A stretch of 64,000 bases of DNA from NCBI GenBank assembly GCA_013822245.1, contig PNKE01000055.1, forward strand, positions 597-64,596, written 5' to 3'. Below are positions 13,195-63,717 of the stretch, one piece after another (the first letter of the stretch is position 1; each line of letters begins with the position of its first letter). The notes below the pieces were generated by a model. The model searched no databases. It was not told where the DNA came from and saw only the letters and a program-made list of their open reading frames with translations. The position numbers and the translations under genes are program-made. The DNA comes from Candidatus Solibacter sp. (lineage in GTDB: Bacteria > Acidobacteriota > Terriglobia > Bryobacterales > Bryobacteraceae).

Positions 13195-13288
13195 GAGTCC
13201 GCCCCAATCGACCAGTGTTGTAGCCAGCTAAGGGCAAAAGGGCAAAATTCACCATTCCCTATGCCTCTGTAGCTGCCTGCAATGCAAT

Positions 13289-17989: not shown

Positions 17990-18658
17990 ATGAAGCATAG
18001 ATTGGTTTTGGCGTGTGTGATGATGGCCGCCTTCGCGGCCACTGCGGGTATCGCGACGGCTGCTGTGATCGTGGCGCCCGTCGCTGGAGTGATCAACAGT
18101 GGTGGGCCCGGGTTCGGCAGCCTGGCCGACACCTTCAATCAGAATGGCCTGTCGAGCGGCTATGTGAGCGGGGTGACGGACTTCGATGTTTACCTTGGCA
18201 CAAATCCGACGCACACCACAACGTTTGGTGGCTTTGAGTGGTTCAGCAACAGTGGCACGAGTTCGGCTAGCGTCACCTACGACCTGGGGTCGGTCATGCA
18301 GATTGACCGGCTGGCGCTTTGGAACGAAGAAAGCTCCGGCATCGGGTCATTGGACCTGTACGGTTCGACTGACAATGTGACGTTCAACCTGATCGTATCG
18401 GGCCTGCTGCCCACCGATCATGCGCTGGTCAACTACGGGGCTGATGTTTTCAACCTGGGGGCGACGAACGCGCGGTATGTGCGGTTCGACATGTCCGGGT
18501 GCCCACAACCGAACAACGGCACTTTCAATGCTTGCGCGATCGGCGAAGTTGCGTTCTCGTCGGGCGGCGCAGGTGCAATTCCTGAGCCGGGTACAGCAGT
18601 TCTGTTGGGCCTTGGTATCGCAGGATTGGGACTGATCCGCCGCAAGCGGGCCAATTAG
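17990..18658 (+). CDS. PEP-CTERM sorting-domain protein with discoidin/F5-8 type C-like domain
   Basis: Signal peptide, then VTYDLGSVMQIDRLALWNEE ... ARYVRFDM. C-terminal IPEPGTAVLLGLGIAGLGLIRRKRAN matches the PEP motif + TM + basic tail. Confidence 0.85.
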   Translation: MKHRLVLACVMMAAFAATAGIATAAVIVAPVAGVINSGGPGFGSLADTFNQNGLSSGYVSGVTDFDVYLGTNPTHTTTFGGFEWFSNSGTSSASVTYDLGSVMQIDRLALWNEESSGIGSLDLYGSTDNVTFNLIVSGLLPTDHALVNYGADVFNLGATNARYVRFDMSGCPQPNNGTFNACAIGEVAFSSGGAGAIPEPGTAVLLGLGIAGLGLIRRKRAN

Positions 18659-20484: not shown

Positions 20485-21978
20485 ATGAGCGGATTCGACA
20501 AGCTGAATCGCAGGATGTTTCTCGGCACGAGCGCGGCGGGGATGACGCTGGCGGCGCGGACCGAGGCGCAGGCGGCGCTGGCGGCCGAGCGGGATGAATG
20601 GCCGAAGCTGAAGCCGGCGACGATCCACAAGATCTACGTCGGCCGCGCGGGGTCGACTGTGAACGCGGCGGGGCGGACGGTGCAGTATCTCACCTGGGGC
20701 CAGGATGAGATCAACAAGATGAACGCGCACCTGGACGGGCTGGAGAAGCGGCTTGGGGACGTGAAGTTTGTCGGCGGCGAGACGATTCCGCCGGCCAACG
20801 CGGCCGAAGTCGCGGCGCGGGCCGAAGGGGCGGATGGGATTCTGCTGGTATGGCTGTCGGGGCATGGGGGCGATTACGCAACGCTTGAGAAGTTGAGCTT
20901 CGGGTTGAAGAAGCCGGCGGTGTCGTTCTTCCAGCCGTTCAGCGGGCATGGCTGGATGTGGCACCAGCAGTGGAAGGGCCGCAAGGTGCTGCTGCTGTCG
21001 ACAACCGACCGCAAGGAACTGGACGAGGCGGTGGCGCTGCTGCGGGTGCCGGCGCTGATGAAGCAGACGCGGATCCTGGCGATCGACGGGCCGCGGGGGA
21101 CCAAGGCGTCATGTGATGCCGCGCTGGTGAAAGCGAAGCTGGGCGCGGATCTGATTTCGATCAACAACGCGCAGGTGCTGGAGATGGCCAAGGCGATCGA
21201 CATGAAGCTGGCCGTGGCCGAAGCGGAGAATTACTGGATCAAACCGGCGATCGGCATTCTGGAGCCGACGCGGGACGAGATCATCGATTCGGCGCGGTAC
21301 TACCTGGCGGTGAAAAAGCTGATGATCGAGGAGCGCGTGCAGGGCATCTGCAGCACGGCGTGCATGGGGACGCCGCGCGCCTGTCTGACGTTCAGCAAGC
21401 TGTGCGACCTGGGGCTGGTGGGCGCGTGCGAGGGCGACATCGATTCGACGCTGACGATGCTGCTTTTCGCACATGCGTTCCGCGAGCCGGGGTTCATCAC
21501 AGACCCGGTGGTGGATGAATCGAAGAACGCGCTGGTGCAGTTCCATTGCACGTCGTTCACGCAGCGGGCCGATGGCAGCCGGATGCCGTTTTTGATCCGC
21601 AACCAGACCGACAGCGGCGGCGGCGTGGCCCTGCAGGTGCAGTGGCAGGTGGGCGAGCCGGTGACGATGGCGAAGCTGGTGAACCTGGACACGATGCTGG
21701 CGGTGCCGGGCAGGATCACCGAGACGGGGACGAGCCCGCTGGCCTGCCGCACCCAATTCACCCAGACCGTGCGCGACGCGCGGCACCTGTTCCTGAACTG
21801 GGGCGGCGGAGCGATCGTGAATCCGGGGAGCCCCGGGGATCTGTCGCAGTACGCCGGGGCGATGCCGATGCTGCACCGGGCGGTTTTCTACGGCGACCAC
21901 ATGCGCGGCATCAAGCGGCTGGGCGACCTGATGGGCTTCCGTGTGCTGGAAGAGGATCTGCCGCCGCGGACGACATAG
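20485..21978 (+). CDS. L-fucose/L-arabinose isomerase-like protein with twin-arginine signal
   Basis: NRRMFLGTSAAGMTLAARTEAQA Tat-type leader. GACEGDIDSTLTMLLF resembles the conserved isomerase-family motif. This is a family-level guess only. Confidence 0.5.
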   Translation: MSGFDKLNRRMFLGTSAAGMTLAARTEAQAALAAERDEWPKLKPATIHKIYVGRAGSTVNAAGRTVQYLTWGQDEINKMNAHLDGLEKRLGDVKFVGGETIPPANAAEVAARAEGADGILLVWLSGHGGDYATLEKLSFGLKKPAVSFFQPFSGHGWMWHQQWKGRKVLLLSTTDRKELDEAVALLRVPALMKQTRILAIDGPRGTKASCDAALVKAKLGADLISINNAQVLEMAKAIDMKLAVAEAENYWIKPAIGILEPTRDEIIDSARYYLAVKKLMIEERVQGICSTACMGTPRACLTFSKLCDLGLVGACEGDIDSTLTMLLFAHAFREPGFITDPVVDESKNALVQFHCTSFTQRADGSRMPFLIRNQTDSGGGVALQVQWQVGEPVTMAKLVNLDTMLAVPGRITETGTSPLACRTQFTQTVRDARHLFLNWGGGAIVNPGSPGDLSQYAGAMPMLHRAVFYGDHMRGIKRLGDLMGFRVLEEDLPPRTT

Positions 21979-27427: not shown

Positions 27428-27529
27428 CTCATGGGCCTCCTCAGTGCTTCTGTAGACATGATATTCGCTCTCCGTCCTTTAATGTGCGCCGCGGGCGTTC
27501 ATGGATGCCGGGGGGTTCCCATGCGCACC

Positions 27530-28102
27530 GCCACTCCGTTCGCACCGCTTTCCGCCGCGCCGGCGGGCTGGAGTGGTTTCGAGAGCAGGGATTCGGACTG
27601 TCCATCCACCGGAGCCACGATTCACAACCCGGCTCAGTGATCTCGCATCCGATGGCGGGGGCCGATGTGAACTGCCCGCGGCGGTTCGTCCACGACCTGC
27701 CGAAGACCTTCAATCCGATGAAGTTCAATCCGGCTGACTGGGCGGCGCTGGCCAAACTCGCCGCGGTCAGATACGTCGTGTTCACGGCCAATCGCCATTC
27801 GGGCTTCCGCATGTACGGCACGCGAACGGCGAAGATTCAGATCATGCCGGTACAAGCGCAACGTCACGCGCGCGGCGCTCGATGCGTTCCGGGCGCGGGG
27901 CATCGCACCGGGACTGTACCTTTCGCCGGACGATTATCCGCGCCTCCATGAGAACAGGATCCCGCCGCGGCGGAACGCCCCGCAGATGCGGCCGCCGGCG
28001 GATCCGGGCCTGCTCAAGTACGGCCCGCGGCGGGTGAAGGAGTTGATGACGGGCTACGGGCCGGTGGAGGTGCTGTACCTGTTCCGCCGCCGGCGGGCTT
28101 GA
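27530..28102 (+). pseudogene. Alpha-L-fucosidase (GH29) pseudogene remnant
   Basis: LEWFREQGFGLSIHRSHDSQPG corresponds to the WF..kFG.FIHWG.yS.pg motif with HWG degraded. FNPMKFNPADWAALAKLAAVRYVVFTANRHSGFRMY follows. After a frameshift near 27845 the reading resumes as YKRNVTRAALDAFRARGIAPGLYLSPDDY ... ELMTGYGPVEVLY and then stops prematurely. Confidence 0.6.
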
Positions 28103-31005: not shown

Positions 31006-32271
31006 TCAGGAATGCGTCAGCTCAAGGGCGCAATACACAGCATACGGCGGAATGTCGATCTCGTTGCGGCCGTCGCGGCGGTGGATGGCGGGCGAAGAAT
31101 GCGCCGGCGCGGCGGGGGAGTGCAGACGGGCGTCGCTGACGCCGGGCGGGATCTGCAGTGAAACAAGGTTGGCCGAGGCGCGGCAGGTGTAATTGAACAG
31201 ATGGACGACTCTCGATCGGCCGCCTGGGGCGGCGGTGTGGAGAGCGAGCATCGAGCCGGCGTTGAACAGCCGGATGGAGTCCCAGCGGCGGCTCATGAGC
31301 AGGTGGGCGTCGCGGGCGAGGATCCAGGGATCCTCGAAATCCTGCTTCGACACGGCGACTCTTCCCTTCCCCAATGAATAGGTCTCGAAACGCGGATGAG
31401 CATCATCGAGCTTCGCAGGTGTCCCGATAGCTGAAGCCGAGGACTTCAGAGCGATGAGCAGGCCCCCGGAGGCGACAAACGTCTTCAGGACGGCGGCGAG
31501 CGCGGCTGCGGGCGGCTGGGGATCGACGTAGAGTGCCGCTTTCATCCCCGCGAACGAAGCCGGGACGGCGCGCCGGGTGTGAACGGGGGTGACGGCGATG
31601 TGCTGTCTGGCCGAGAGATTGAGGACTTCGCCGGCCATGTACTCGTTGGCGCCGGCGAAGTCGGAGAGGACCATCAGGCTGGAGACTGGGCGATACTGGC
31701 GCCAGGCGGCGCGGGCTTCGAGCCAGACGAGCAGGTTTCTGATGGACTTCCAGGCCGCCGCGCCTTGGCCCTCGCCGGCGAGGGCATCGGCGGCGTGGTG
31801 TGGGGCGAGCCAGACCGGCCGGCGTGCGCCGTAGGCCCAGGCTTCGGCGAGGCCGAGCAGATATTGATTGGGCTCTATGGCGCGGAGTTCGTCGGGCGGC
31901 TTGGAGTTGATCCAGATCTGGGATGAGGGCGGGGCGAGGGCGCCGGCGAGTTGGGCGATCCAGCCGTTGGCATCGACCCACGGCGCGCCTGTGGGTCCGC
32001 CTTCCTGGCGGTTCTGCGACGCCGCCGCGCCGGGCCAGACGCCGTCGCCGATGGCGAACGGAGCGGGCCTGGACCAGTCGGTCTCTGACCAGGCGGTCCA
32101 GCGCACGGGGAGGAATTCGATGGCCTTGGCAGAGGCCGCGGCGCGGGCCGCGGTTTCGGCACCGGGCTCGGCGAGCAGGCAGTTGACTGGAGAGCCGTCG
32201 AGCAGCCCGGCGGCGGCCGACGGGTTCCACGCGGCCGGCCAAAACATGGGCACTCGCGCAGGCTGCTGCAT
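31006..32271 (-). CDS. Hypothetical protein (421 aa)
   Basis: Long ORF with host-like composition, packed tightly between co-directional genes (11 nt and 22 nt gaps). I recognise no motif. Confidence 0.6.
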   Translation of the reverse strand: MQQPARVPMFWPAAWNPSAAAGLLDGSPVNCLLAEPGAETAARAAASAKAIEFLPVRWTAWSETDWSRPAPFAIGDGVWPGAAASQNRQEGGPTGAPWVDANGWIAQLAGALAPPSSQIWINSKPPDELRAIEPNQYLLGLAEAWAYGARRPVWLAPHHAADALAGEGQGAAAWKSIRNLLVWLEARAAWRQYRPVSSLMVLSDFAGANEYMAGEVLNLSARQHIAVTPVHTRRAVPASFAGMKAALYVDPQPPAAALAAVLKTFVASGGLLIALKSSASAIGTPAKLDDAHPRFETYSLGKGRVAVSKQDFEDPWILARDAHLLMSRRWDSIRLFNAGSMLALHTAAPGGRSRVVHLFNYTCRASANLVSLQIPPGVSDARLHSPAAPAHSSPAIHRRDGRNEIDIPPYAVYCALELTHS

Positions 32272-43988: not shown

Positions 43989-44657
43989 CTATTTCTTGTT
44001 GAACTTGCGGGCCAGTGCGGCCAGGCCGAGTCCCAGGCCCATCATGGCGTAGGTGCCCGGTTCGGGTATCTCGCCCGGCGGCGGCGGCGGCGGGGGGTTT
44101 GTGCCGAACGTTGCCGGGACCTTGTCGCTCTGCCCCTGCAGCATGCCCCGGAACCGCACCACAAGGGCTTCGGGTTGGCGTGAGCCAGTGCTGTGTTCCA
44201 TGATGAACGAATCGGTGGTGATGCCGGCCAGGCCGCCGGCGAGGGTGAAGGTGAACGTCGCGGTCTCGCCCACCGCGATGCCGCCAACCGGACTGCCCGC
44301 GCCGAGCCATCCGTCTCCAAGCGAGGAACCAATGTCGAAATCACCGTAGGGAGCACCGTTGATGCCACCTTCGAAGTTGGGATCGCCAATGAGTTGGAAG
44401 TCCGGATCGTCGCTGGTGAAACTGGTGACGTCGGTGATGCTGCCGCCGGGATTATTGAAAACGACTCCCGTGATGTAGCCGCCAAAGACCGGCGTCGTGT
44501 TGGTGAAGCTCATGACCAGGCTCCCCGTGGTATTCGACGAACCGATGTATTCGATCGTCCCCGTGAAACTGCCATACTCGCCCGTGCCACTCATTGTGAC
44601 CGGCGCGGCAAACGCCGAAACGGCAGCCAGAAATAGCCCAGCCAGACTCGTTTTCAT
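43989..44657 (-). CDS. PEP-CTERM sorting-domain protein
   Basis: Signal peptide. Poly-Pro then IPEPGTYAMMGLGLGLAALARKFNKK C-terminus. GGAGGG lies upstream of the ATG. Confidence 0.85.
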   Translation of the reverse strand: MKTSLAGLFLAAVSAFAAPVTMSGTGEYGSFTGTIEYIGSSNTTGSLVMSFTNTTPVFGGYITGVVFNNPGGSITDVTSFTSDDPDFQLIGDPNFEGGINGAPYGDFDIGSSLGDGWLGAGSPVGGIAVGETATFTFTLAGGLAGITTDSFIMEHSTGSRQPEALVVRFRGMLQGQSDKVPATFGTNPPPPPPPGEIPEPGTYAMMGLGLGLAALARKFNKK

Positions 44658-44825: not shown

Positions 44826-46034
44826 TCAGCGGAACGTCATCGCCCCGAACGTCACCACGCTTTCCGGGTCGATCGCCCAGTGCTGGTATTCAAGCAGCGT
44901 CCCGCGCACGCCCGGCGCCGACTTCAGAAACGTGTAGAACGGAGCCGTGCCGCACCACCTCAGCTCGTCCTGCTTTTCACAGACCTGCGCCCAGAATCCT
45001 TGCGCGTCGCCCGCCATCAGGCGATCGATCCTGCCTCGGTCGCCTGCACCGGCCTCCGCCATCGCTCCGCGGTTGGGTTCGGCCGCGAAATCGTCGCCAT
45101 AGCGGCGTCCCATGTGGGCCATGTCGACGCCCAGGACGAAGACCAGCTTCGACCCCTCGCGGGCGCGGATGTCGCCCAAAACGTCAATAAAGGCGGCCAC
45201 GGCGGGGTCGCTTTCCGGGGCGCGGCCGGCTTCCATCGCCTCCGCGAACGATCCGGCCAGAATCGGCGCCACCCTTACACCCGCGCCGAAAAGACTCTGC
45301 AGGAAGACGATCTGGAATTCGATCGAGTGTTCGATCTTGTGGCAGTAGTCCTCCATCCGTATGCTGGCGGGCGCGCGCCGCGAGAGTTCGTCCACCAGGG
45401 CAAGTTCGGTCTGGGCGGCGCCCCAGGGCGTGACAAACCGCTTGCGCGTCAGCCCGTACAGCCCCGGCTCGCCGTAATGCGACGTGCCCAGGATGACAAA
45501 CGTCTTGTCCCGCGCCCACCCGCCCAGCGCTCCGTATGCCGCGCGGTAGCTTGCCCAGCCGCCCTCGGGGCTGGCATGCGGGGCGGCGATGGCGGCCACC
45601 GCTTCGGCCTCGCCGGCCGGCTGGCCCATGTTCTCCGCCATCCACGCTTCGAGCTCCTCGCCCGTGTCCGGATAGGCCGAGCCGGCGTGGCACGGCTCCC
45701 TCACCGCGGCCGACTCAAACTCGCGGACGCTCGCCAATCGCATCTCGTCGAACCGCTCGTTCTCCAGGAATCCCGCGCCGTCGAGCGCCTCCAGCAGCCG
45801 TTCCCCCAATTCCCCCGAACGCAGCTCTCCCGTGGCTTCGTGGATCGCCTCGCGCAGTCCCGCCTCGTCGTGCCCGCCGTCAAAGCACGCCAGCGCCCGC
45901 ACCAGCGGCGGCGGGACGATCAGCACCGCGTCGCTGAACTCGAACGGATCCCGGATCATCAGCCCCGGCCGGTCCTCGGCCGGCGAGGGCATGAAGTCAA
46001 GCTCCATTCGTATGCGCGGCAGCGGCTTGGCCAT
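44826..46034 (-). CDS. MEMO1 / AmmeMemoRadiSam system protein B family protein
   Basis: I chose the internal ATG (MAKPLP). AAPHASPEGGWASYRAAY, ILGTSHYG, EHSIEFQ and DMAHMG motifs. Confidence 0.75.
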   Translation of the reverse strand: MAKPLPRIRMELDFMPSPAEDRPGLMIRDPFEFSDAVLIVPPPLVRALACFDGGHDEAGLREAIHEATGELRSGELGERLLEALDGAGFLENERFDEMRLASVREFESAAVREPCHAGSAYPDTGEELEAWMAENMGQPAGEAEAVAAIAAPHASPEGGWASYRAAYGALGGWARDKTFVILGTSHYGEPGLYGLTRKRFVTPWGAAQTELALVDELSRRAPASIRMEDYCHKIEHSIEFQIVFLQSLFGAGVRVAPILAGSFAEAMEAGRAPESDPAVAAFIDVLGDIRAREGSKLVFVLGVDMAHMGRRYGDDFAAEPNRGAMAEAGAGDRGRIDRLMAGDAQGFWAQVCEKQDELRWCGTAPFYTFLKSAPGVRGTLLEYQHWAIDPESVVTFGAMTFR

Positions 46035-46113
46035 CCCTCCATAGTAGCCGGGCCACCTCGTCGGGGCGGCCGTCGTAGAATGGACGCTGGAGCCGGCCAA
46101 CAGGCACAACCAT

Positions 46114-46401
46114 ATGGACCGCATGACGGATCTCGAAATCGGGCGCGCCCTCACCGGCATCGCCGGCTGGACCTACTCCGGCAAGCTCCACAAGCTATAC
46201 GTCTTCCCCGACTTCATTCATGCCTTCGGCTTCATGGCCACCTCCGCGCTGGTCATCGAGAAGATGAACCACCACCCCGAGTGGTCCAACACCTGGAACC
46301 GCGTCACCGTCGATCTTTCCACCCACGACGCCGGCGGCGTCAGCGCCCGCGACTTCGAACTGGCGCGCGAACTCGACCGCATCGCTACAAAATTCCTATG
46401 A
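46114..46401 (+). CDS. 4a-hydroxytetrahydrobiopterin (pterin-4a-carbinolamine) dehydratase
   Basis: 95 aa. FGFMATSALVIEKMNHHPEWSNTWNRVTVDLSTHD is the PCD signature. Confidence 0.85.
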   Translation: MDRMTDLEIGRALTGIAGWTYSGKLHKLYVFPDFIHAFGFMATSALVIEKMNHHPEWSNTWNRVTVDLSTHDAGGVSARDFELARELDRIATKFL

Positions 46402-48722
46402 GACTCATCACCATCCTCCTGCTGGCCGCCTCCCTGCTCAGCGCCCAGTACCGCTTCAAGGGCTCGCGCGACCTCGACGCCCTCATCGAAAAGGCCATCG
46501 CCGAGAACCAGATCCCCGGCGCCGTGCTCCTCGCCGGCCAGGGCGCCCGCATCCTCCACTACAAGGCCTACGGCTACCGCTCGCTCGAACCAAAGAAGGA
46601 AAGGATGACGCTGGACACCATCTTCGACGCCGCCTCGGTCACCAAGATCGTCGCCACCACGTCCTCCGTCATGAAACTGGTCGAACAGGGCAAGGTCCGC
46701 CTGGCCGACAGGGTGACGGTTTATCTACCTGGATTCCAGGCCGGCCAGAGCGACGTCACCGTGCGCCATCTGCTCACCCACTATTCGGGCCTGCGCCCGG
46801 ATGTCGATCTCAAGCCCGAGTGGTCCGGCTACGAAACCGGCGTCGAAAAGGCGCTGGTTGACGTGCCCGTGGCCGAACCCGGCGCCCGGATGATCTATAG
46901 CGATATCGGCTTCATCCTGCTGGGCGAGATCGTTCGCGTGGCCTCGGGCAAGCCGCTCAACGAATTCGCCGCCGAAAACATCTTCAAACCGCTCCGCATG
47001 ACGCACAGCCGGTTCCTGCCGCCCGCCGCATGGAAGCCGCTCATCGCGCCCACCGAACGGACTGACGGCAATATCCTGCGCGGCGTCGTCCACGACCCGA
47101 CAACCCGCTACATGGGCGGCGTCGCCGGCCACGCCGGACTGTTCACCACCGCCCGCGACCTCTCGCGCTGGGCGCGGATGATGCTCAACGGCGGCGTCCT
47201 CGGCGGCGTGCGCGTGTTGAGTTCAGCCACCGTGAAGAAATTCACCGAGCCCAATTCCCCGCCCCACCAGACCGCCCTGCGAGGCCTCGGCTTCGACATG
47301 GACTCGCCGTTCTCCTCCAACCGCGGCGAGTTGTATCCCATCGGCAGCTTCGGCCACACCGGCTTCACCGGCACATCCGTCTGGATGGACCCGGTTTCGA
47401 AAAGCTATGTGATCCTGCTCGCCAACTCCGTCCATCCGAATCCGCGGCCGGCCATCAGCCCGCTCCGTTCGAAGGTGGCCACCATTGTCGCCGCCGCCGT
47501 CGGGCTTACGCGCCAGGACGTCTCGCTCACCGGCTACGGCGAAGTCAGCGCCTATACCCCCGTTCGCCGCCACACGGCCCGCTCCGCCGAGGTCCAGACT
47601 GGCATCGACGTGCTCGTCTCCGAGGGCTTCGCCCGCTGGAAGGGCAAAAAGGCGGCGCTCATCACCAACCATACCGGCCGCACCCGCGACGGCAAGCGCA
47701 ATATCGACGCCATGCTCGCCGGCGGCGTCGGGCTCAAGGCGCTCTTTTCTCCCGAACACGGCTTCGCCGGAACCGAGGATCACGAAAACGTCGGCCACGC
47801 CAGGGACCAGGCCACCGGCCTGCCCATCTGGAGCCTCTACCACGGCAAGGACCGCAAGCCCAAGCCCGAACACCTCGAAGGCCTCGATCTGCTCGTGTTC
47901 GACATCCAGGACATCGGAGCACGGTTCTATACCTACATTTCGACCATGAAGAACGCCATGGAAGCCGCCGCCTCGGCCGGCATCGAGTTTGTCGTGCTGG
48001 ACAGACCCAATCCCATCACCGGCATCTATGTCGAAGGCCCCATGCTCGACGCCGGCAAAATCTCCTTCGTCGGCATCCATCCCATGCCCCTGCGCCACGG
48101 CATGACCACCGGCGAGCTCGCCCGCATGATCAACGCCGAGGCCGGCATCAAGGCCAATCTCACCGTCGTCGAAATGAAAAACTGGCGCCGCGCCGACTGG
48201 TGGGACTCAACCGGACTCACCTGGGTCGATCCCTCGCCCAACATGCGCAGCCTCAACGCCGCGCTGCTCTATACCGGCGTCGCCATGGCCGAGTACGCCA
48301 AAAACTACTCGGTCGGGCGCGGCACCGAGACCCCGTTCGAGCTCTTCGGCGCCGACTGGATGGACGGCCGCGCCGTCGCCCTGCTCCTGAACAAGCGGAT
48401 GGTCCCAGGCGTCCGGTTCTATCCGGTCGAATTCAAGCCCGCCACTTCGAATCTGGCGGGCAAATCCGTCTCCGGCGTCAGAATCGTCCTCACCGACAGG
48501 GAAGGATTCTCGGCTCTCCGCCTCGGTTTGGAGATCGCCGCGGCGATCGAGAAGCTCCATCCGGGTACCATTGACTGGAATGCCAACGCCAGGCTCATCG
48601 GCAATCAGGAGGCCATCGACGGCATTCAGAAGGGGATCGACCCAAGAATTCTCGAACCGCGCCTTCAGGAGGCAGCCGCCGCGTTCGCCCGCCGTAGGAA
48701 CCAATACCTACTATATAAATAG
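46398..48722 (+). CDS. Fusion protein: serine hydrolase (beta-lactamase class C-like) + DUF1343 (NamZ-type exo-muramidase-like) domain
   Basis: ATG inside an ATGA overlap with the upstream stop. The track ORF from 44880 is an artefactual extension. Signal peptide, SVTK (SxxK), then TGIDVL...ALITNHTGR...LFSPEHGF, typical of DUF1343. Confidence 0.8.
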   Translation: MRLITILLLAASLLSAQYRFKGSRDLDALIEKAIAENQIPGAVLLAGQGARILHYKAYGYRSLEPKKERMTLDTIFDAASVTKIVATTSSVMKLVEQGKVRLADRVTVYLPGFQAGQSDVTVRHLLTHYSGLRPDVDLKPEWSGYETGVEKALVDVPVAEPGARMIYSDIGFILLGEIVRVASGKPLNEFAAENIFKPLRMTHSRFLPPAAWKPLIAPTERTDGNILRGVVHDPTTRYMGGVAGHAGLFTTARDLSRWARMMLNGGVLGGVRVLSSATVKKFTEPNSPPHQTALRGLGFDMDSPFSSNRGELYPIGSFGHTGFTGTSVWMDPVSKSYVILLANSVHPNPRPAISPLRSKVATIVAAAVGLTRQDVSLTGYGEVSAYTPVRRHTARSAEVQTGIDVLVSEGFARWKGKKAALITNHTGRTRDGKRNIDAMLAGGVGLKALFSPEHGFAGTEDHENVGHARDQATGLPIWSLYHGKDRKPKPEHLEGLDLLVFDIQDIGARFYTYISTMKNAMEAAASAGIEFVVLDRPNPITGIYVEGPMLDAGKISFVGIHPMPLRHGMTTGELARMINAEAGIKANLTVVEMKNWRRADWWDSTGLTWVDPSPNMRSLNAALLYTGVAMAEYAKNYSVGRGTETPFELFGADWMDGRAVALLLNKRMVPGVRFYPVEFKPATSNLAGKSVSGVRIVLTDREGFSALRLGLEIAAAIEKLHPGTIDWNANARLIGNQEAIDGIQKGIDPRILEPRLQEAAAAFARRRNQYLLYK

Positions 48723-56526: not shown

Positions 56527-56671
56527 CGCAAACCTCCTCCCCCCGAATCCACCCTCTTGGCTTCGGGCTGCGGCCAGTATACAATGACTGGCTATTCCAT
56601 GGCTCCTCCGTGGTCTCTCCCCTCCTGACAGCCCTAAAGCGATAGCCCTCGGGCGTCGATGGATAGATGTG

Positions 56672-57604
56672 ATGAAATCCGCCATTGCCGTCCTGTTTGC
56701 CTTGCCGATCGCCCTCTGGGGCCAGTCCGAAAGCCGGACCTATGTCTTTGATTTGGAAGGCCGGCGCGTGCCCTGGTCCGCCTCAAGTTCGGCGGCCGGG
56801 GCGGCCAGCGCCAGCGTCGAGAACCTCAACGGCCGCAAGGCGCCGCTGGAAAGCGTCGAGGAACGCCTCATCAGCCAGCAGGGCGGGGTGAAGACGGTGG
56901 AGCGGCTCATCCAGCGCTTCTCGGGCGACGGATCGAAGCTGCCGCTGGAGCGTGAAGTCATTGAAACCACGGATCTTGGCAGTGGCCGCCAGACGCTATC
57001 GAAGACGGTCTACCGCGGCGACTTCAACGGCCGCATGGCGCTCGCCGAGCGCGTCGTCGAACAGACCGAACCAGCCGGTTCCTCCGCCGTCGCCGTTACC
57101 ACCCTCATCGACCGGCCTACCATCAGCGGCACGTTTCAAACCATCGAGAGGCGGGAGGCGAGGATCACCACGGGCCAGGACCGCTCCGAACGCGACGAGA
57201 CCAGTTACCTGCCTGACGCCAACGGCCGGTTTGCCGAGGCGTCCAGGGTGGTCGAGCGCGTGTCGAAAACCGGCGGTCAAACGGTGAAGCAGGTCGACGA
57301 GTTCGAATCGGCCACCACCGGGCGGCTGTCGCTCTCGAAACAGGTGGTTTCCACCACCACCGTAACCGCCGCCGGCGAGGTGACCGTCTCCGATGTCTAC
57401 GGCACGGCGGCCCCGGGCCGTCCGGCCACCGGGCAGTTGCAGATCCGCGAGCGCCAGGTGGTGGAAAAGACCATCGGCGCGGCTGGCATCACGGAAACCC
57501 TCTCCATCCAGCGCCCCGCCGCCGACGGCAGCGGCCGTCTGGGCGAGTTGCGTAAGGTCGCCGAAACCGTCTGCACCGGCAGGTGCGCACCGGCGAAACC
57601 TTAA
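56672..57604 (+). CDS. Exported hypothetical protein
   Basis: Signal peptide MKSAIAVLFALPIALWGQS. Internally repetitive Thr/Val/Glu-rich sequence. No family recognised. Confidence 0.55.
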   Translation: MKSAIAVLFALPIALWGQSESRTYVFDLEGRRVPWSASSSAAGAASASVENLNGRKAPLESVEERLISQQGGVKTVERLIQRFSGDGSKLPLEREVIETTDLGSGRQTLSKTVYRGDFNGRMALAERVVEQTEPAGSSAVAVTTLIDRPTISGTFQTIERREARITTGQDRSERDETSYLPDANGRFAEASRVVERVSKTGGQTVKQVDEFESATTGRLSLSKQVVSTTTVTAAGEVTVSDVYGTAAPGRPATGQLQIRERQVVEKTIGAAGITETLSIQRPAADGSGRLGELRKVAETVCTGRCAPAKP

Positions 57605-59074: not shown

Positions 59075-60241
59075 ATGCCGCCAGCAGCCAGACTCACCGA
59101 TCCAGTCGCTCACCCGCTGCCGCCCGTGCTTACCGGCGGTCCCGGCAGCCCCAACACCATCATCGCCATGTTGCCCGCCTGGCGCGGCATCCCGGCCGCC
59201 GTGGCCTCCGCCCTGAACGCCATGAAGAAGGTGGCCGACACCACGATCAAGACGGCCGAGGCGGCTACCCTGGCTGCCGCCGGCACGCCCGGCGCGCCCG
59301 CCGCCAAGGCGGCCGAGGAAACCGTGAAAGCGACTGTCGCCGCCTCCATGGGCTCGGCCATCTCCGCCATGGCCGGCGGCATGGCCGACATCCATATGTG
59401 CACCACGCCGCTGCCCATCCCGCCCCACGGCCCCGGCCTGGTCATCGACGGCAGCCCGACGGTTCTGATCAACAACATGCCCGCCTGCCGCCAGGGCGAC
59501 ACCATCATCGAGGCCGTCGGCCCCCCCAACAAGATCACCATGGGCTGCCCCACCGTACTCGTCGGCAACAGCGGTTCGGGCGGAGGAGGCGGCGCCGGCG
59601 GCGCCGGTGCCGCGGGCGCCGCGGCTGGAGCCGGAGCTGGCGCCGCGGCTGCTGCCCCCCCAGCGGCGAATATCGCCGGCATGGATGTCATGGTCCAGCC
59701 CAACGGCGACATCCTGGTCGGCAAGTCGATCACCATCACCGGCGACATGGAATTCAAGATGAAAACCCTGTTCTCGCTCGGCCAGATCGCCTCCACCCCC
59801 ACCGGCGAAAAACTGCTCAAGGAACTCGGCAACGGCGACAAGCCCGTCAAAATCCAGAAAACCACGGGCGGCAACTCCTGCGCCTACCCGGCCGCCGGGG
59901 AGAAAAAAGCCGACGGCACGCCTGGGCCTGGCTCCGGCTCCACCGTCAACTACAACCCCGACAAGAAAAGCCTCGGGCCCGCGGATTGGCAAACCCGTCC
60001 TCCGGCCATCGCTCTTGCCCACGAACTGATCCATTCCACGCAGGCCGCCAAGGGTACCTTGAGCAACGACAAGGCTGACAACGACAACAAGCCCGACCCC
60101 ACCGATCCGGCAAAAAAGGCCCAGACCTACATCGACGAACTCGAAACCGTCGGCATTCCGCCCCGTGACGGCGGACCATACACCGAGAACAAGATCCGCA
60201 AGGAGTGGCCGCCGCCTCAGCCCGAGCGCCCGTGGTACTGA
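59075..60241 (+). CDS. PAAR-domain polymorphic toxin with Gly/Ala linker and C-terminal HExxH zinc-metallopeptidase-like domain (NleD/M91-like)
   Basis: MPPAARLTDPVAH (literal PAAR, fits AARxxDxxxH), LPAWRG, MPACRQGD, GSPTVLINN, GCPTVLVG. Linker residues ~165-200. HELIH at nt 60020-60034, followed by ELETVGI...TENKIRKE. Confidence 0.75.
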   Translation: MPPAARLTDPVAHPLPPVLTGGPGSPNTIIAMLPAWRGIPAAVASALNAMKKVADTTIKTAEAATLAAAGTPGAPAAKAAEETVKATVAASMGSAISAMAGGMADIHMCTTPLPIPPHGPGLVIDGSPTVLINNMPACRQGDTIIEAVGPPNKITMGCPTVLVGNSGSGGGGGAGGAGAAGAAAGAGAGAAAAAPPAANIAGMDVMVQPNGDILVGKSITITGDMEFKMKTLFSLGQIASTPTGEKLLKELGNGDKPVKIQKTTGGNSCAYPAAGEKKADGTPGPGSGSTVNYNPDKKSLGPADWQTRPPAIALAHELIHSTQAAKGTLSNDKADNDNKPDPTDPAKKAQTYIDELETVGIPPRDGGPYTENKIRKEWPPPQPERPWY

Positions 60242-60250
60242 TGCAATACC

Positions 60251-60904
60251 ATGCTGAACAATGGAGTCTCCGCCTTGGTCCTGCTGGCGTTCGCGGCGCC
60301 GTGTTGCCAGACTAGCGAAAGGAAACTGCCTGAGATGTCGACGATGCAGAATGCCCAGCCGCCCGGAACCCTGTCGGCCACGGCCCAGGACTGCGACCTC
60401 CGCGTCGCCATCCAGGCCTCGCCCACGTCGCTGCTTCTGGGCTACGAGTTTCGCAACCGCTCGAACAGGACCGCCTTCCTGTTCAATGTCGTCCACAAGA
60501 CGGGCCCGTCAGGCGGACCCGAACCGGACCCGAACCTGGTCTATGTCGAGCCCTCCGGCGGCTCCATCATCCTCGGCAAGAAGATCATTCCGGCGCCTCG
60601 CGGCATGAGGGTGGAAAAGCCCGACGTCCCCTACGTCACCAGGGTCGAACCCGGACAGGCCGTCGTCGAGAAGCTCGACCTCATGCTGCCGTTGAGGATC
60701 TTCACCCCCTACGACCAGCCCGCGCCATCCGCGCTTGCCGAAGCCGCCGTCTACTTTGAACTCGGCTTCTTCCTCGCCCCCGATCCCTCGGTTGCTGAAG
60801 CCGCCGGCGGCTACCTGATCGTCGATCCCTTCCCGGCCGAAAAGCAGATCATCCTCCGTGCCGGGCCCCTCGGCCGCTTCCCCGTCCAGCCGGCGCAGAA
60901 GTAA
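60251..60904 (+). CDS. Exported hypothetical protein, candidate cognate immunity protein
   Basis: Starts 9 nt after the toxin stop. Hydrophobic leader VSALVLLAFAAPCC. No family recognised. The assignment rests on gene position only. Confidence 0.45.
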   Translation: MLNNGVSALVLLAFAAPCCQTSERKLPEMSTMQNAQPPGTLSATAQDCDLRVAIQASPTSLLLGYEFRNRSNRTAFLFNVVHKTGPSGGPEPDPNLVYVEPSGGSIILGKKIIPAPRGMRVEKPDVPYVTRVEPGQAVVEKLDLMLPLRIFTPYDQPAPSALAEAAVYFELGFFLAPDPSVAEAAGGYLIVDPFPAEKQIILRAGPLGRFPVQPAQK

Positions 60905-61850: not shown

Positions 61851-63482
61851 TTACTGGCCCCGCTCGCACTCCACGGGCGCGCTGGCGTTGCCCGATGAAT
61901 CCACGGCCACCACCCGCCACCTGATGCCCGGCTTGCGGTGCGAGTCTTCATCGACAAACTCCGCCGTCGCCGTCGACCCGGCGCGCTCGTCGCCATGGAA
62001 CACGCGGTAGTAGATCACATCCTTCGACGCACTCGGCTTCCACGTCACCCGCTGCGCCCAGGCGAACGCGCCCGGGATCTTCGTGCTGTGGAAACGCTCG
62101 GCCTTGAGTTCCGTCACCGGCGCCGGCGCTTCGTCTTCATAGGCCGTCGTGTAGATGGTCAGCGACAGCGGCTTCACCTTGTCCTTCAGCGCCTTCACCG
62201 TGCCCGACGGGCCGGGCAGGTCGCCGTCCTCGGTCTTCGGCGGCGCCGCCACCAGGTATTCGTACTTCCGCCACGGCTTATCGGCCTTGCCGGGCAGCGC
62301 CACCGAAACCGCCGTCTCCTTCTCGTTGCGGTTGATGATGGCGACAGACCACGTCCCCGCCTCATGCCGCACGGCCGCCGCCCGCACCTTCGGGTCGGTC
62401 GTCGCCACCTCCATCACCTTCGCCGGCCCCCGGAAATACTTCGTCAACAGCCCGTACGGGTAGTACATCGTCCTCAGCTCGCCGCCGTTCTTGAGCGACT
62501 TGAACAGCCCCCATTGATTGATCCTCGTCGACTGCTCGTTGTCCGGATAGTCCATGAACGTCCAGTAGCCCATCGCCCTCACGCCGCCGTTCATCGCCGC
62601 CAGCACCGCCTCTGCCAGTTGCAGCCCGGCCAGCGGTTCGCGCGCCGTGCCGTAGTAGCGGCAGGTGTCCCAGCGCACGCCGTACTTGTTCTGGATGAAC
62701 TGCGCCGGACCGAATTCGCCCAGGATGAACTCCTTGCCCTTGGCCTTGGCGATGCCCACGCCCCAGGCGTTCTTCTCGCGGAACCAGTCGTAGAACGTCA
62801 GGTCCTCGGGCGGATGCTGGTTGGCGTAGTGGTGGCCGCCGTAGACGCCGGTGACGTCATCCATATTGGCCGCCGCCCATTCGATCGTGTTCCAGTTGCT
62901 GATGGGCGATGCATCGGTTGCCAGCAGATCGACCTTCAGGCCGCGGCGCTTCAGTTCGGCGTGGATCAGCCGGTGGTAGTCCTTGAACTTGTCCAGGTCC
63001 TTGAGCATCGCCGCCCACGCGCCCATCGTCAGCTCGTTCGACATGCAGTAGGTGGTCATGTTCGTCGCGCCGCCCTTGATGATGTACTCAAGCTCATCGG
63101 CCACGGCCCGCGCATAGGCCTCGCGCCCGGCGCCCGGCTTGATGTCCTTCGGCGCGCCGGTGGTGAAATAGACCTCCGTGCCGGTGGCCTCTTTCAGAAA
63201 CAGGAACTGCTTCAAATAGCCGTCCAGCGCCGCCTGGTCGCGCGCGGCGGCAGGACCCGGCGCCCAGCGGTGGAACACCCGCGCGAAGCCCGGATTCAAC
63301 TCCTTCCAGCGTTTGGCGACAACCTGGTCGAAGAACTCCGGCGTGATCGTCGTCATGAAGAACTCGGCGTGAAAGCCGACCCCCGTGAACCGCGGCGTGA
63401 CCACCTTGTCCGAGACCTTCACCTGAACCTGGCCCGCCGCCTGCACGGCGACGAAAACCATGAGCATGATTATGCGCTTCAT
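61851..63482 (-). CDS. Exported clan GH-A-like glycoside hydrolase with C-terminal Fn3/Ig-like domain
   Basis: Internal ATG (MKRIIMLMVFVAVQAAG signal). Candidate acid/base MSNELT and nucleophile LGEFG motifs. The C-terminal beta-rich segment WKPSASKDVIYYRVF...VVAVDSSGNAS follows. Confidence 0.55.
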   Translation of the reverse strand: MKRIIMLMVFVAVQAAGQVQVKVSDKVVTPRFTGVGFHAEFFMTTITPEFFDQVVAKRWKELNPGFARVFHRWAPGPAAARDQAALDGYLKQFLFLKEATGTEVYFTTGAPKDIKPGAGREAYARAVADELEYIIKGGATNMTTYCMSNELTMGAWAAMLKDLDKFKDYHRLIHAELKRRGLKVDLLATDASPISNWNTIEWAAANMDDVTGVYGGHHYANQHPPEDLTFYDWFREKNAWGVGIAKAKGKEFILGEFGPAQFIQNKYGVRWDTCRYYGTAREPLAGLQLAEAVLAAMNGGVRAMGYWTFMDYPDNEQSTRINQWGLFKSLKNGGELRTMYYPYGLLTKYFRGPAKVMEVATTDPKVRAAAVRHEAGTWSVAIINRNEKETAVSVALPGKADKPWRKYEYLVAAPPKTEDGDLPGPSGTVKALKDKVKPLSLTIYTTAYEDEAPAPVTELKAERFHSTKIPGAFAWAQRVTWKPSASKDVIYYRVFHGDERAGSTATAEFVDEDSHRKPGIRWRVVAVDSSGNASAPVECERGQ

Positions 63483-63717
63483 ATTGGAACCCGCAGTTAT
63501 CATATGCCCGCGCCGCGCCGAATGCTTGGGCAACCCGATTTCAGGCGTGGACCGGGACCATCCATCCCCGGAGCAGGTTCGCGCCGGGGCTACGCCTCGT
63601 GGACCGCCGCGGCGAGTGAACAAGAGCCCGATAGCCGGCGGCGGCCCCCGGATGCAGGTCCGGCGGCGCAAGGCCATCCTTCCAAGGCGGCATCTCGGGC
63701 CGCGGCCGGAGGGCGCG

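What the first reader, a model, noticed from the sequence alone, without database searches (positions are those of the whole stretch)
59075..60904. Orphan PAAR-spike polymorphic toxin (HExxH metallopeptidase-like C-terminus) with a tightly coupled exported partner and no secretion-apparatus genes nearby
Seen in sequence:
- The 388-aa ORF opens MPPAARLTDPVAH and carries two more PAAR-type turns (LPAWRG, MPACRQGD) plus the usual GSPxVxIN strands, so its N-terminal ~160 aa is a PAAR cone.
- A ~36-residue Gly/Ala linker follows.
- The C-terminal ~190 aa contain ITITGDMEFKMKTLFSLGQIASTPTGEKLLKEL...VKIQK, then HELIH, then ELETVGI...TENKIRKE.

From memory, this C-terminal layout is that of NleD/HopH1-type (Peptidase_M91) zinc-protease effectors. 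A 217-aa ORF with a hydrophobic export leader starts only 9 nt downstream, which is the normal position of an immunity gene.

Established knowledge: PAAR proteins cap VgrG spikes of T6SS or related contractile injection systems and carry C-terminal toxins.

The pair sits between a yihY-like gene and a sugar-phosphate isomerase. No hcp, vgrG, tss or Eag-chaperone gene occurs anywhere in the 64 kb. A PAAR-M91-like fusion with this partner protein is not a pair I recognise as characterised.
Basis: partly seen in the sequence, partly recalled or inferred. Interest (0 to 1): 0.8.

Follow-up and report, generated by a model that had tools for sequence, protein, structure and literature searches.

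The report
Spike-tip protease toxin with immunity gene
A soil acidobacterium carries a two-gene weapon cassette, a spike-tip protein fused to a botulinum-like zinc protease plus an exported protein that most likely protects the producer's kin; it is an ordinary kind of bacterial toxin/antidote pair, but the antidote belongs to a large protein family that no database has yet described.

Summary
ORF 59075-60241 encodes PAAR + Gly/Ala linker + Peptidase_M91 (Pfam 86 bits, intact HExxH/E/RxxY). ORF 60251-60904 starts 9 nt downstream and has a hydrophobic leader. No contractile-system gene lies in the 64 kb.

M91 ("Tox-HopH1") toxin domains on T6SS carriers were catalogued in 2012. A 2026 paper shows that a PAAR-Rhs-M91 effector kills bacteria from the periplasm and is blocked by its downstream gene.

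What I add:
- The partner follows the M91 domain in 21 of 21 evaluable loci, whatever the carrier (split PAAR, compact PAAR, VgrG fusion, stand-alone). It is absent from 64 loci where the same PAAR carries another toxin (p=2e-18).
- The partner family has at least 1,159 50%-identity clusters. It has no Pfam, NCBIfam or PDB relative and is predicted to be a beta-sandwich lipoprotein.
- The PAAR is a split PAAR with a prePAAR motif, but a soluble helical hairpin replaces the usual transmembrane helices and no Eag chaperone is nearby.
- "Orphan" status is normal in Bryobacterales. Sister copies sit in T6SS clusters.

The source is a Candidatus Solibacter sp. MAG. A T6SS in this same genome was not shown.

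The parts
59075..60241 (+). Effector gene (388 aa): split PAAR, then Gly/Ala linker, then M91 metallopeptidase toxin
   Evidence: ORF. Pfam PAAR_motif and Peptidase_M91 both score above their gathering cut-offs. AlphaFold model has pLDDT 84.3 and pTM 0.81. dN/dS is 0.09 against the syntenic relative.
59084..59113 (+). prePAAR motif AARLTDPVAH (residues 4-13), fitting AARxxDxxxH; H13 is the likely fourth zinc ligand of the split PAAR
   Evidence: Sequence. The motif is defined in PMC7773334. It is conserved in 58 of 65 related PAAR ORFs.
59195..59374 (+). Ala-rich amphipathic helical hairpin (residues 41-100) inserted into the PAAR domain; it is not a transmembrane segment
   Evidence: Helices 41-68 and 74-100 in the model. 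The maximum 19-residue Kyte-Doolittle average is about 1.2 across the family, with 7-10 charged residues. A61, G70, P72, P75 and K85 are invariant.
59375..59569 (+). PAAR core (residues 101-165) with invariant H107, C109 and H118
   Evidence: Pfam PAAR_motif matches residues 116-165. PDB profile hits are SalCis10 at 1.5e-10 and the PAAR 4jiw at 3.4e-7. Invariant columns are listed.
59570..59677 (+). Disordered Gly/Ala/Pro linker (residues 166-201)
   Evidence: pLDDT is below 50 for residues 167-193. Length and sequence vary among homologues.
59678..60238 (+). Peptidase_M91 / Tox-HopH1 zinc metallopeptidase domain (residues 202-388). Catalytic set: HELIH at 60020-60034, E355 at 60137-60139, E371-N372 at 60185-60190, R385xxY388 at 60227-60238
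   Evidence: Pfam 86.2 bits. Catalytic residues are invariant or nearly so in 36 homologues. Foldseek and profile hits are to BoNT-like light chains. pLDDT is above 90. dN/dS is 0.064.
60251..60904 (+). Partner gene (217 aa): predicted cognate immunity protein, an exported beta-sandwich protein with a lipoprotein-type leader
   Evidence: Starts 9 nt after the toxin's stop codon. Homologues lie immediately downstream of M91 in 21 of 21 evaluable loci and are absent from 64 non-M91 PAAR loci. No Pfam, NCBIfam or PDB relative. dN/dS is 0.12.
60251..60307 (+). Hydrophobic leader MLNNGVSALVLLAFAAPCC. The family consensus is a lipobox (A-x-G-C); this copy is atypical (A-P-C-C, no basic n-region)
   Evidence: Alignment. 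Census: 55 of 71 members have a hydrophobic leader and at least 30 have a lipobox.
60371..60889 (+). All-beta sandwich domain of the partner (residues 41-213, about 14 strands)
   Evidence: AlphaFold model pLDDT 83, core above 90, pTM 0.77. Best Foldseek PDB hit has E=0.015, which is not significant.

Best explanation
This is a chromosomal toxin-immunity cassette of the polymorphic-toxin type in an acidobacterium (Candidatus Solibacter sp. MAG, Bryobacterales).

Gene 1 makes a spike-tip effector. A split PAAR domain (prePAAR motif, soluble helical hairpin, PAAR core) would cap the VgrG trimer of a contractile injection machine. A flexible Gly/Ala linker tethers a small botulinum-like (M91/Tox-HopH1) zinc endopeptidase to it. 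In this lineage the machine is most probably a canonical T6SS encoded elsewhere in the genome.

On firing, the tip carries the protease into the periplasm of a neighbouring Gram-negative cell. There it cleaves an as yet unknown envelope protein and stops growth.

Gene 2 is translationally coupled, starting 9 nt downstream. It makes an exported, probably lipid-anchored beta-sandwich protein that faces the periplasm. It protects sister cells, most likely by binding and blocking the incoming protease.

Shown here:
- the domain make-up;
- the intact and conserved catalytic set;
- purifying selection on both genes;
- strict genetic linkage of the partner to the M91 domain on four different carriers;
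- residence of the same PAAR type next to VgrG in T6SS clusters (Acidobacteriota and others) and in CIS clusters (cyanobacteria).

Inferred:
- the presence of a T6SS in this genome;
- the periplasmic site of action (from the partner's export signal and from the Salmonella M91 experiment);
- neutralisation by direct binding;
- the nature of the target.
For: Domains: Pfam Peptidase_M91 at 86 bits and PAAR_motif at 31.8 bits. HExxH, E355, E371-N372, R375 and R385xxY388 are invariant or nearly so in 36 homologues. The fold matches BoNT-like light chains (Foldseek E=1.5e-5; profile 8e-7).

Polymorphic-toxin behaviour: the same N-terminal PAAR module (70-78% identity) carries Aspzincin_M35, RES, PF15644, PF14220, PF10720, PF18451 and other C-termini.

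Immunity behaviour of the partner:
- It is homologous in Acidobacteriota, Planctomycetota and Cyanobacteria.
- By tblastn, M91 and partner co-occur in 18 loci, M91 occurs alone in 1 (a contig end), the partner never occurs alone, and 64 loci have neither. Fisher p=1.7e-18.
- Three more distant members (27-37% identity) also lie directly downstream of M91.
- The carriers include a split PAAR, a compact PAAR, VgrG-M91 fusions and stand-alone M91.

Export: 55 of 71 members have a hydrophobic leader and at least 30 have a lipobox.

Delivery: VgrG lies directly upstream of this PAAR type in 47 of 49 loci. TssA/E/F/G/H accompany it in Acidobacteriota, including Bryobacterales L033 and L042. Solibacter usitatus has a T6SS (PMC2660368, PMC4239648).

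Precedent: the M91 domain of PAAR-Rhs SED_RS06335 is toxic only in the periplasm and is neutralised by the downstream gene (PMC13556075). VgrG2b C-ter with PA0261 is a periplasmic metallopeptidase-immunity pair (PMC6899460).

Functionality: dN/dS is 0.09 for the toxin and 0.12 for the partner. The locus is syntenic over 5.4 kb with a relative at 85.6% nt identity.
Against: - No T6SS or CIS gene lies in the 64 kb. I could not show one elsewhere in the same MAG: the search was saturated, and the window's proteins are not in the contig index.
- This copy's leader is atypical. It has no basic residue, and its lipobox reads A-P-C-C where the family has A-x-G-C, so lipidation is uncertain.
- No toxin-partner complex could be modelled.
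- The target, the toxicity and the neutralisation are untested.
- The characterised M91 proteins NleD, HopH1 and XopG act on eukaryotic proteins. Tpe2 was predicted to be anti-eukaryotic with no immunity gene (PMC9846239).
Confidence: 0.75

Rival explanations
1. The protease is an anti-eukaryotic effector, like NleD/HopH1/XopG, injected into amoebae, fungi or other soil eukaryotes. The downstream protein is then not an immunity protein but an exported accessory factor such as a co-effector, receptor-binding or stabilising protein.
For: Pfam M91 was built around T3SS effectors that cleave host proteins, and the NCBIfam XopG/HopH subfamily gives a weak hit of 37 bits. Tpe2, the M91 effector of P. 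aeruginosa, was predicted to be anti-eukaryotic. The nearest folds are neurotoxin light chains.
Against: A partner that strictly follows the toxin domain on every carrier and is exported is the signature of immunity to a periplasm-acting antibacterial toxin. The only M91 T6SS domain tested is antibacterial and acts in the periplasm. The XopG subfamily cut-off of 150 bits is far from met. An exported accessory protein could not meet the cytoplasmic toxin before secretion.
Confidence: 0.1
2. In this genome the PAAR-M91 protein tips a phage-like contractile injection system (extracellular or cytoplasmic CIS) and not a canonical T6SS.
For: The closest solved relative of the PAAR part is the eCIS tip SalCis10 (E=1.5e-10, against 3.4e-7 for a T6SS PAAR). 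The same PAAR type sits in CIS operons (CIS_tube, gp19, gp25, Baseplate_J, Tail_P2_I, eCIS_core) in about 30 cyanobacterial loci. In Coleofasciculus a PAAR-M91+partner pair lies between VgrG and gp25.
Against: Every apparatus-linked copy from Acidobacteriota (L022, L026, L033, L042, L086) lies with TssE/F/G/H, and none lies with CIS genes. Solibacter usitatus has a T6SS.
Confidence: 0.1
3. The pair is a stranded, non-functional remnant of a toxin island that is no longer used by any secretion system.
For: It lies between housekeeping genes with no apparatus, adaptor or mobile-element gene nearby. This copy's partner has a degenerate-looking leader.
Against: Both reading frames are intact. All catalytic and zinc-binding residues are kept. 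dN/dS is 0.06-0.14, the same as the flanking BrkB gene. The locus is conserved in synteny in a second genome.
Confidence: 0.05

Closest known systems
SED_RS06335 / SED_RS06340 of Salmonella Dublin SPI-19 (PAAR-Rhs-M91 T6SS effector and its immunity protein; PMC8867033, PMC13556075)
   Same: Both have an N-terminal PAAR and a C-terminal Pfam M91 domain with HExxH and a BoNT-like fold. Both have an immunity gene immediately downstream whose product is exposed to the periplasm. Antibacterial action in the periplasm is shown for the Salmonella protein and inferred here.
   Different: The Salmonella effector is 1,406 aa, has an Rhs cage and sits inside a T6SS cluster. This one is 388 aa with only a Gly/Ala linker, has a split PAAR with a helical hairpin, and lies far from any apparatus gene. 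The Salmonella immunity protein is 110 aa with one TM helix. The partner here is a 217-aa beta-sandwich protein with a lipoprotein-type leader. I did not compare the two immunity proteins by sequence, because the Salmonella protein is not in the collections I could reach.
Tox-HopH1 toxin domain of polymorphic toxin systems (Zhang et al. 2012, PMC3482391)
   Same: The defining signature HExxH plus [DE]N is present (H316-E-x-x-H320; E371-N372). T6SS/PAAR-type carriers are listed among its delivery routes, and planctomycetes are among its taxa.
   Different: That catalogue lists no immunity family for Tox-HopH1 ('-') and does not list Acidobacteria or Cyanobacteria. Here a specific, large partner family is linked to the domain.
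VgrG2b C-ter-PA0261 / Tpe1-Tpi1 metallopeptidase effector-immunity family (Wood et al. 2019, PMC6899460)
   Same: This is the functional model. It is a spike-borne zinc metallopeptidase that acts in the periplasm. Its immunity gene is invariably downstream, with a product that reaches the periplasm by a signal peptide, lipobox or TM anchor. The toxin domain moves between carriers. VgrG-M91 fusions followed by the partner also occur in Bryobacterales (L025, L066).
   Different: No sequence or fold relationship was detected. VgrG2b C-ter is absent from the profile search at E<=10 and from the 50 best Foldseek PDB matches shown. It is an analogue, not a homologue.
prePAAR effectors (Tse6, RhsA, Tas1, DddA; Ahmad et al. 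2020, PMC7773334)
   Same: Both have an exact AARxxDxxxH motif at the N-terminus. Both have a split PAAR with three His/Cys in the core plus one from prePAAR. Both carry a C-terminal toxin with a downstream immunity gene.
   Different: The segment that splits the PAAR is a charged, amphipathic Ala-rich hairpin and not one or two transmembrane regions. No Eag/DcrB chaperone gene lies in the window or among the recurring neighbours in 80 related loci.
NleD / HopH1 / XopG type III effectors (Pfam PF14891 founders)
   Same: They belong to the same Pfam family and share the catalytic motif.
   Different: They are delivered by T3SS into eukaryotic cells, have no PAAR and no immunity gene. The NCBIfam XopG/HopH subfamily cut-off is not met (37 against 150 bits).

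Membership tests
Pfam PF14891 Peptidase_M91 | Whole-protein score above the gathering cut-off (25 bits) | tested here: met
   86.2 bits, E=4.5e-24, residues 217-377 matching profile positions 3-154 of 176
Pfam PF14891 Peptidase_M91 / Tox-HopH1 | HExxH zinc motif plus a downstream Glu ligand, [DE]N and RxxY | tested here: met
   H316, E317, H320 and E355 are invariant. E371, N372, R375, R385 and Y388 are at least 90% conserved in 36 homologues. The signature is from PMC3482391 and PMC9846239.
Pfam PF14891 Peptidase_M91 | Zinc-dependent endopeptidase activity | not testable with these tools
   Needs biochemistry
NCBIfam NF041347 XopG/HopH/AvrPtoH T3SS effector subfamily | Score above the curated cut-off (150 bits) | tested here: not met
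   37.2 bits
Pfam PF05488 PAAR_motif | Score above the gathering cut-off (27 bits) | tested here: met
   31.8 bits, residues 116-165. Profile hits to the solved PAAR/Cis10 proteins 9rce (1.5e-10) and 4jiw (3.4e-7).
NCBIfam NF033420 T6SS_PAAR_dom (equivalog domain) | Score above the curated cut-off (124 bits) | tested here: not met
   21.7 bits. The domain is split and divergent.
prePAAR effectors (PMC7773334) | AARxxDxxxH motif in the first ~15 residues | tested here: met
   AARLTDPVAH at residues 4-13. Conserved in 58 of 65 related ORFs.
prePAAR effectors (PMC7773334) | One or two transmembrane regions between prePAAR and PAAR, or flanking PAAR | tested here: not met
   The maximum 19-residue hydropathy in residues 26-115 is 1.48 here and averages 1.2 in the family. 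The insert has 9 charged residues. I used only a simple hydropathy scale, not TMHMM.
prePAAR effectors (PMC7773334) | Co-occurrence with an Eag (DUF1795/DcrB) chaperone | tested here: inconclusive
   None in the 64-kb window and none among the recurring neighbour clusters of 80 loci. The rest of the genome could not be searched.
Polymorphic toxin system | A conserved N-terminal trafficking module with variable C-terminal toxin domains | tested here: met
   The same PAAR module (70-78% identity) carries at least 8 different C-terminal Pfam domains
Polymorphic toxin system | An immunity gene immediately downstream that is specific to the toxin domain | tested here: met
   The genetic criterion is met in 21 of 21 evaluable loci, with 0 of 64 in non-M91 loci. 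Protective function was not tested.
T6SS effector | Encoded with, or secreted by, a T6SS of the same organism | not testable with these tools
   There is no T6SS gene in the window. Paralogous PAARs lie in Bryobacterales T6SS clusters, and Solibacter usitatus has a T6SS. The same MAG could not be queried.
Tpe1-Tpi1 / VgrG2b C-ter-PA0261 family | Sequence or fold homology of the metallopeptidase domain | tested here: not met
   VgrG2b C-ter is absent from the profile search of PDB at E<=10 and from the 50 best Foldseek matches shown
Known immunity, inhibitor or DUF families (Pfam, NCBIfam, PDB) | Any significant profile or fold match for the partner | tested here: not met
   0 Pfam and 0 NCBIfam hits at E<=1. 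0 of 43 diverse members hit a Pfam family. The PDB profile search gives a best E of 1.2, and Foldseek PDB gives a best E of 0.015.

The most novel reading that the evidence does not exclude
The partner would found a large, uncatalogued immunity family of at least 1,159 50%-identity clusters across seven or more phyla. Its members would be beta-sandwich lipoproteins that act as dedicated protein inhibitors of botulinum-like (M91/Tox-HopH1) zinc proteases. That would be a natural proteinaceous inhibitor scaffold for the BoNT-like zincin fold.

In addition, its carrier would define a transmembrane-less, Eag-independent class of prePAAR 'split PAAR'. The conserved soluble hairpin of this class would let one tip module serve both T6SS and phage-like CIS spikes.
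Probability: 0.5. Interest if true: 0.55.

Novelty: new variant of a known kind. Interest (0 to 1): 0.35.

Why it matters
The toxin itself adds little, because M91 domains on T6SS carriers are catalogued and one has now been shown to be a periplasmic antibacterial toxin. Three things give the locus some value.

1. It exposes a large, taxonomically broad family of predicted immunity proteins for M91/Tox-HopH1 toxins. Neither Pfam nor NCBIfam covers this family, and the 2012 catalogue left the slot blank. A profile for it would let M91 antibacterial toxins be told apart from anti-eukaryotic ones in genome annotation. A protein inhibitor of a BoNT-like protease fold would also be of structural interest.

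2. It shows a widespread split PAAR that keeps the prePAAR motif but swaps the transmembrane helices for a soluble hairpin. It also shows no adjacent Eag chaperone. This bears on current models of what prePAAR and its TMDs are for.

3. The same tip module, at 60-77% identity, occurs on T6SS spikes in Acidobacteriota, Verrucomicrobiota and Planctomycetota and on CIS spikes in cyanobacteria. That is a tidy example of tip modules being exchanged between contractile machines.

The periplasmic target of M91 toxins remains unknown.

Tried and rejected
1. Locating the window's own proteins in the contig index to get the assembly and look for a T6SS. Neither the effector nor the partner (P0122) is on record.

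2. Searching with a Bryobacteraceae TssH to find a T6SS ATPase from the same MAG. The search was saturated (8,000 hits at E<=1e-50). No 'Candidatus Solibacter sp.' entry was among the 120 listed, so the result is inconclusive.

3. A literature search for Acidobacteria/Solibacter T6SS biology returned only community surveys. A narrower search gave the two genomic papers I used.

4. Promoter and terminator consensus scans around the pair gave nothing above the shuffled expectation.

5. Rfam and tRNA scans of the window gave nothing, so there is no tRNA-linked island.

6. The idea that the helical insert is a transmembrane domain needing an Eag chaperone was rejected on hydropathy and charge.

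7. The idea that the VgrG2b C-terminal domain is homologous, as one paper implies by calling it M91, was not supported by profile or fold search.

8. My first co-occurrence count, based on crude ORF calls, was unreliable because overlapping ORFs were dropped. I replaced it with tblastn on the DNA.

9. A toxin-partner complex could not be predicted.

I rebuilt the alignment.
Full report
**1. Observation.** The first runs 59075..60241 (+, 388 aa). The second runs 60251..60904 (+, 217 aa) and starts 9 nt after the first one's stop codon. Pfam assigns Peptidase_M91 to residues 217-377 (E=4.5e-24; 86.2 bits against a cut-off of 25). It assigns PAAR_motif to residues 116-165 (31.8 bits against a cut-off of 27). 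NCBIfam gives only sub-threshold hits to the XopG/HopH T3SS subfamily (37 of 150 bits) and to the T6SS PAAR equivalog (22 of 124 bits). The three PAAR-type turns, the 36-residue Gly/Ala linker and HELIH are all present. The flanking genes are BrkB/YihY and an AP_endonuc_2 TIM-barrel protein.

I called about 60 ORFs across the 64 kb and scanned them all against Pfam. They are housekeeping, transport and metabolic genes plus a HigB/HigA pair. None encodes Hcp, VgrG, a Tss component, a sheath, tube or baseplate protein, or an Eag/DUF4123/DUF2169 adaptor.

**2. Source.** The partner is 100% identical to 'hypothetical protein C0504_13470 [Candidatus Solibacter sp.]', which comes from a 68-kb MAG contig. 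The window has 65% G+C. A Bryobacteraceae MAG (GCA_014860455.1) has the same gene order: BrkB, PAAR-M91, partner, AP_endonuc_2, glycosidase. It is collinear over 5.4 kb at 85.6% nucleotide identity. Against that relative, dN/dS is 0.09 for the effector (0.064 in the M91 part), 0.12 for the partner and 0.08 for the flanking BrkB gene. Both genes are therefore functional, vertically inherited residents of this site. They are neither a recent insertion nor a decaying remnant.

**3. The effector.** The AlphaFold model is confident (pLDDT 84, pTM 0.81). It shows beta strands at residues 1-40, a helical hairpin at 41-100, the PAAR beta core at 101-165, a disordered linker at 167-193 and a compact alpha/beta protease domain from about residue 200 with pLDDT above 90.

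The protease half matches botulinum-like light chains by fold (9gy5 at E=1.5e-5; BoNT/E, X, F, A) and by profile (PG1 light chain at 8e-7). This is the known relationship of M91 to the BoNT zincins. In an alignment of 36 full-length homologues, H316, E317, H320 and E355 are invariant. E371, N372, R375, R385 and Y388 are at least 90% conserved. That is the complete 'HExxH, [DE]N' Tox-HopH1 signature (PMC3482391) plus the BoNT-type Glu and RxxY (PMC9846239). The enzyme should be active.

**4. The PAAR half is a split PAAR.** Residues 4-13 (AARLTDPVAH) fit the prePAAR motif AARxxDxxxH exactly. That motif is defined in PMC7773334. H13 together with the invariant H107, C109 and H118 gives the 'three plus one' zinc-ligand pattern that paper describes.

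In the proteobacterial prePAAR effectors the PAAR is split by transmembrane helices, and the proteins depend on Eag chaperones. Here the splitting element is an Ala-rich amphipathic hairpin with 7-10 charged residues. Its maximum 19-residue hydropathy is about 1.2, below the usual TM threshold. No Eag/DcrB gene lies in the window or among the recurring neighbours of related loci. The closest solved relative of the PAAR part is the tip protein Cis10 of the Salmonella salamae eCIS (9rce, 1.5e-10). It scores ahead of a T6SS PAAR (4jiw, 3.4e-7).

**5. Family and context.** The homologue search found about 45 clusters with the same PAAR-linker-M91 architecture in Bryobacteraceae, Planctomycetaceae and cyanobacteria. 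It also found many proteins in which the same N-terminal module (70-78% identical) carries other C-termini, including Aspzincin_M35, RES, PF15644, PF14220, PF10720 and PF18451. That is the hallmark of a polymorphic toxin family.

A scan of species-representative genomes returned 80 loci. In these the PAAR module is 60-77% identical across Acidobacteriota, Cyanobacteria, Verrucomicrobiota, Planctomycetota, Alpha-, Beta- and Gammaproteobacteria and Sumerlaeota. I clustered the neighbours and named them with Pfam. Three results stand out.
- A VgrG lies directly upstream on the same strand in 47 of 49 VgrG-containing loci.
- In cyanobacteria the surrounding genes are phage-like CIS genes: CIS_tube, gp19, gp25, Baseplate_J, Tail_P2_I and eCIS_core.
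- In Acidobacteriota (L022, L026, L033, L042, L086), Verrucomicrobiota, a planctomycete and a betaproteobacterium they are T6SS genes: TssA, TssE, TssF, TssG and TssH.

Eight Bryobacterales loci (L001, L031, L045, L047, L052, L056, L070, L085) have no apparatus gene within 10 kb. 'Orphan' PAAR-toxin genes are therefore the norm in this order. The reference genome Solibacter usitatus Ellin6076 has a T6SS (PMC2660368, PMC4239648). I could not show a T6SS in the very MAG the window comes from. Delivery by a T6SS in trans is a well-supported inference, not a demonstration.

**6. The partner.** The ORFs downstream of PAAR-M91 genes in an acidobacterium, a planctomycete and a cyanobacterium are homologous to the window's partner (BLASTP 2e-28 and 1e-20). 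I ran tblastn with 36 M91 domains and 29 partners against the 83 non-redundant loci. The result was M91 with partner in 18 loci, M91 alone in 1, partner alone in 0, and neither in 64. The single M91-alone case is L062, where the contig ends 167 nt after the M91 match. Fisher's test gives p=1.7e-18.

The partner always lies immediately downstream, whatever carries the M91 domain. The carriers are:
- the split PAAR seen in the window;
- compact canonical PAARs of 270-320 aa (Terriglobia, Roseibium, Cytophagales, Polyangiaceae);
- VgrG-M91 fusions of 827-906 aa (Bryobacterales, Acidobacteriota, a betaproteobacterium);
- stand-alone M91 ORFs.

An exhaustive profile search found 1,159 50%-identity cluster representatives at E<=1e-3 and 565 at E<=1e-10, nearly all of 175-240 aa. 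Three distant members (27-37% identity) that I looked up also lie directly downstream of a PAAR-M91 or M91 gene. That gives 21 of 21 evaluable cases.

None of 43 diverse members matches any Pfam family. The window's copy has no Pfam or NCBIfam hit at E<=1. The family has no PDB relative by profile. The model is a confident all-beta sandwich (core pLDDT above 90) with no significant Foldseek neighbour. The best hit has E=0.015 and is a generic Ig-like domain.

Of 71 members, 55 have a hydrophobic N-terminal leader and at least 30 have a canonical lipobox. The planctomycete copy gains a leader if an upstream ATG is used. The window's own leader is atypical: it has no basic residue, and it reads A-P-C-C where the family has A-x-G-C.

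**7. Mechanism.** The genetics match those of a periplasm-acting T6SS toxin with a periplasm-facing immunity protein. Two experimental precedents make this concrete.
- The M91 domain of the PAAR-Rhs effector SED_RS06335 of Salmonella Dublin is required for interbacterial killing. It arrests E. coli growth only when exported to the periplasm, and the downstream gene neutralises it (PMC13556075).
- The unrelated metallopeptidase VgrG2b C-ter/Tpe1 acts in the periplasm. Its invariably downstream immunity proteins reach the periplasm by a signal peptide, a lipobox or a TM anchor (PMC6899460).

I therefore propose the following sequence. The split PAAR caps VgrG. Firing delivers the tethered protease into a neighbour's periplasm. 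The protease cleaves an unknown envelope protein. The exported beta-sandwich partner protects kin cells by binding the protease. The site of action, the binding and the target are all inferred.

**8. Rivals.**
- An anti-eukaryotic role, like NleD, is disfavoured by the strictly linked, exported partner.
- CIS delivery in place of T6SS delivery is possible, but all apparatus-linked acidobacterial copies lie with T6SS genes.
- A dead remnant is excluded by the purifying selection and the intact motifs.

**9. Novelty and score.** The kind is known. Tox-HopH1 on T6SS carriers was described in 2012, PAAR-Rhs-M91 with immunity was predicted in 2022 and tested in 2026, and PAAR-M91 proteins are already annotated in public databases. 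Two things are not described in anything I could search. One is the M91-linked partner family; the 2012 catalogue lists no immunity family for Tox-HopH1. The other is the TMD-less, apparently Eag-independent prePAAR split PAAR that T6SS and CIS spikes share. I rate the finding a new variant of a known kind, with modest interest (0.35).

Noticed in passing
window 59084-59374; loci L009-L087: The PAAR module keeps an exact prePAAR motif (AARxxDxxxH), but a soluble, charged Ala-rich helical hairpin splits it where prePAAR effectors normally have transmembrane helices. The module is 60-77% identical across at least 7 phyla. It sits next to VgrG in both canonical T6SS clusters and phage-like CIS operons, with no Eag chaperone nearby.
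   Followed up: partly
L025:7838-11704, L066:7856-11711, L086:2861-6139 (Bryobacterales / Acidobacteriota): VgrG proteins of about 900 aa carry a C-terminal M91 domain. Each is followed by the partner family. In L025 and L066 a PAAR gene of the window's type comes next. The arrangement parallels P. aeruginosa VgrG2b-PA0261 but uses an unrelated protease family.
   Followed up: partly
L006:514-6992 (Coleofasciculus sp.): A PAAR-M91 gene and its lipoprotein partner lie inside a CIS-type baseplate operon, in the order VgrG, PAAR-M91, partner, gp25, Baseplate_J-like. If the partner is an immunity gene, it is embedded among structural genes of a contractile injection system.
   Followed up: no
window 12100-13500: A low-GC island (0.45-0.53, against 0.65 for the window) lies immediately after a HigB/HigA toxin-antitoxin pair (11143-11769). 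It holds two ORFs with no Pfam match: 12193-12639 (+, Cys-rich, 148 aa) and 12703-13194 (-, 163 aa, membrane-like). It is probably foreign DNA.
   Followed up: partly
window 27484-27951: A 155-aa ORF matches only positions 28-140 of the 345-position alpha-L-fucosidase profile (E=2e-13). It has poor codon periodicity and is probably a gene fragment or pseudogene.
   Followed up: no
window 44826-48722: The mechanical 1,280-aa ORF at 44880-48722 is real only from about residue 530 onward, where it is a beta-lactamase-family domain fused to the exo-beta-N-acetylmuramidase NamZ. Its upstream part overlaps a Memo-like gene on the minus strand (44826-46160).
   Followed up: partly
window 17990-18658 and 43989-44657: Two secreted proteins have C-terminal PEP-CTERM sorting signals, one of them with an F5/8 type C domain. 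This suggests an exosortase system in the organism.
   Followed up: no
window 20485-21978, 31006-32271, 56669-57604, 61851-63677: Four sizeable ORFs (311-608 aa) show good coding periodicity but have no Pfam match at E<=1e-4. The 608-aa one is conserved next to the cassette in the syntenic relative (91% identity) and looks like a secreted glycosidase-like protein.
   Followed up: no
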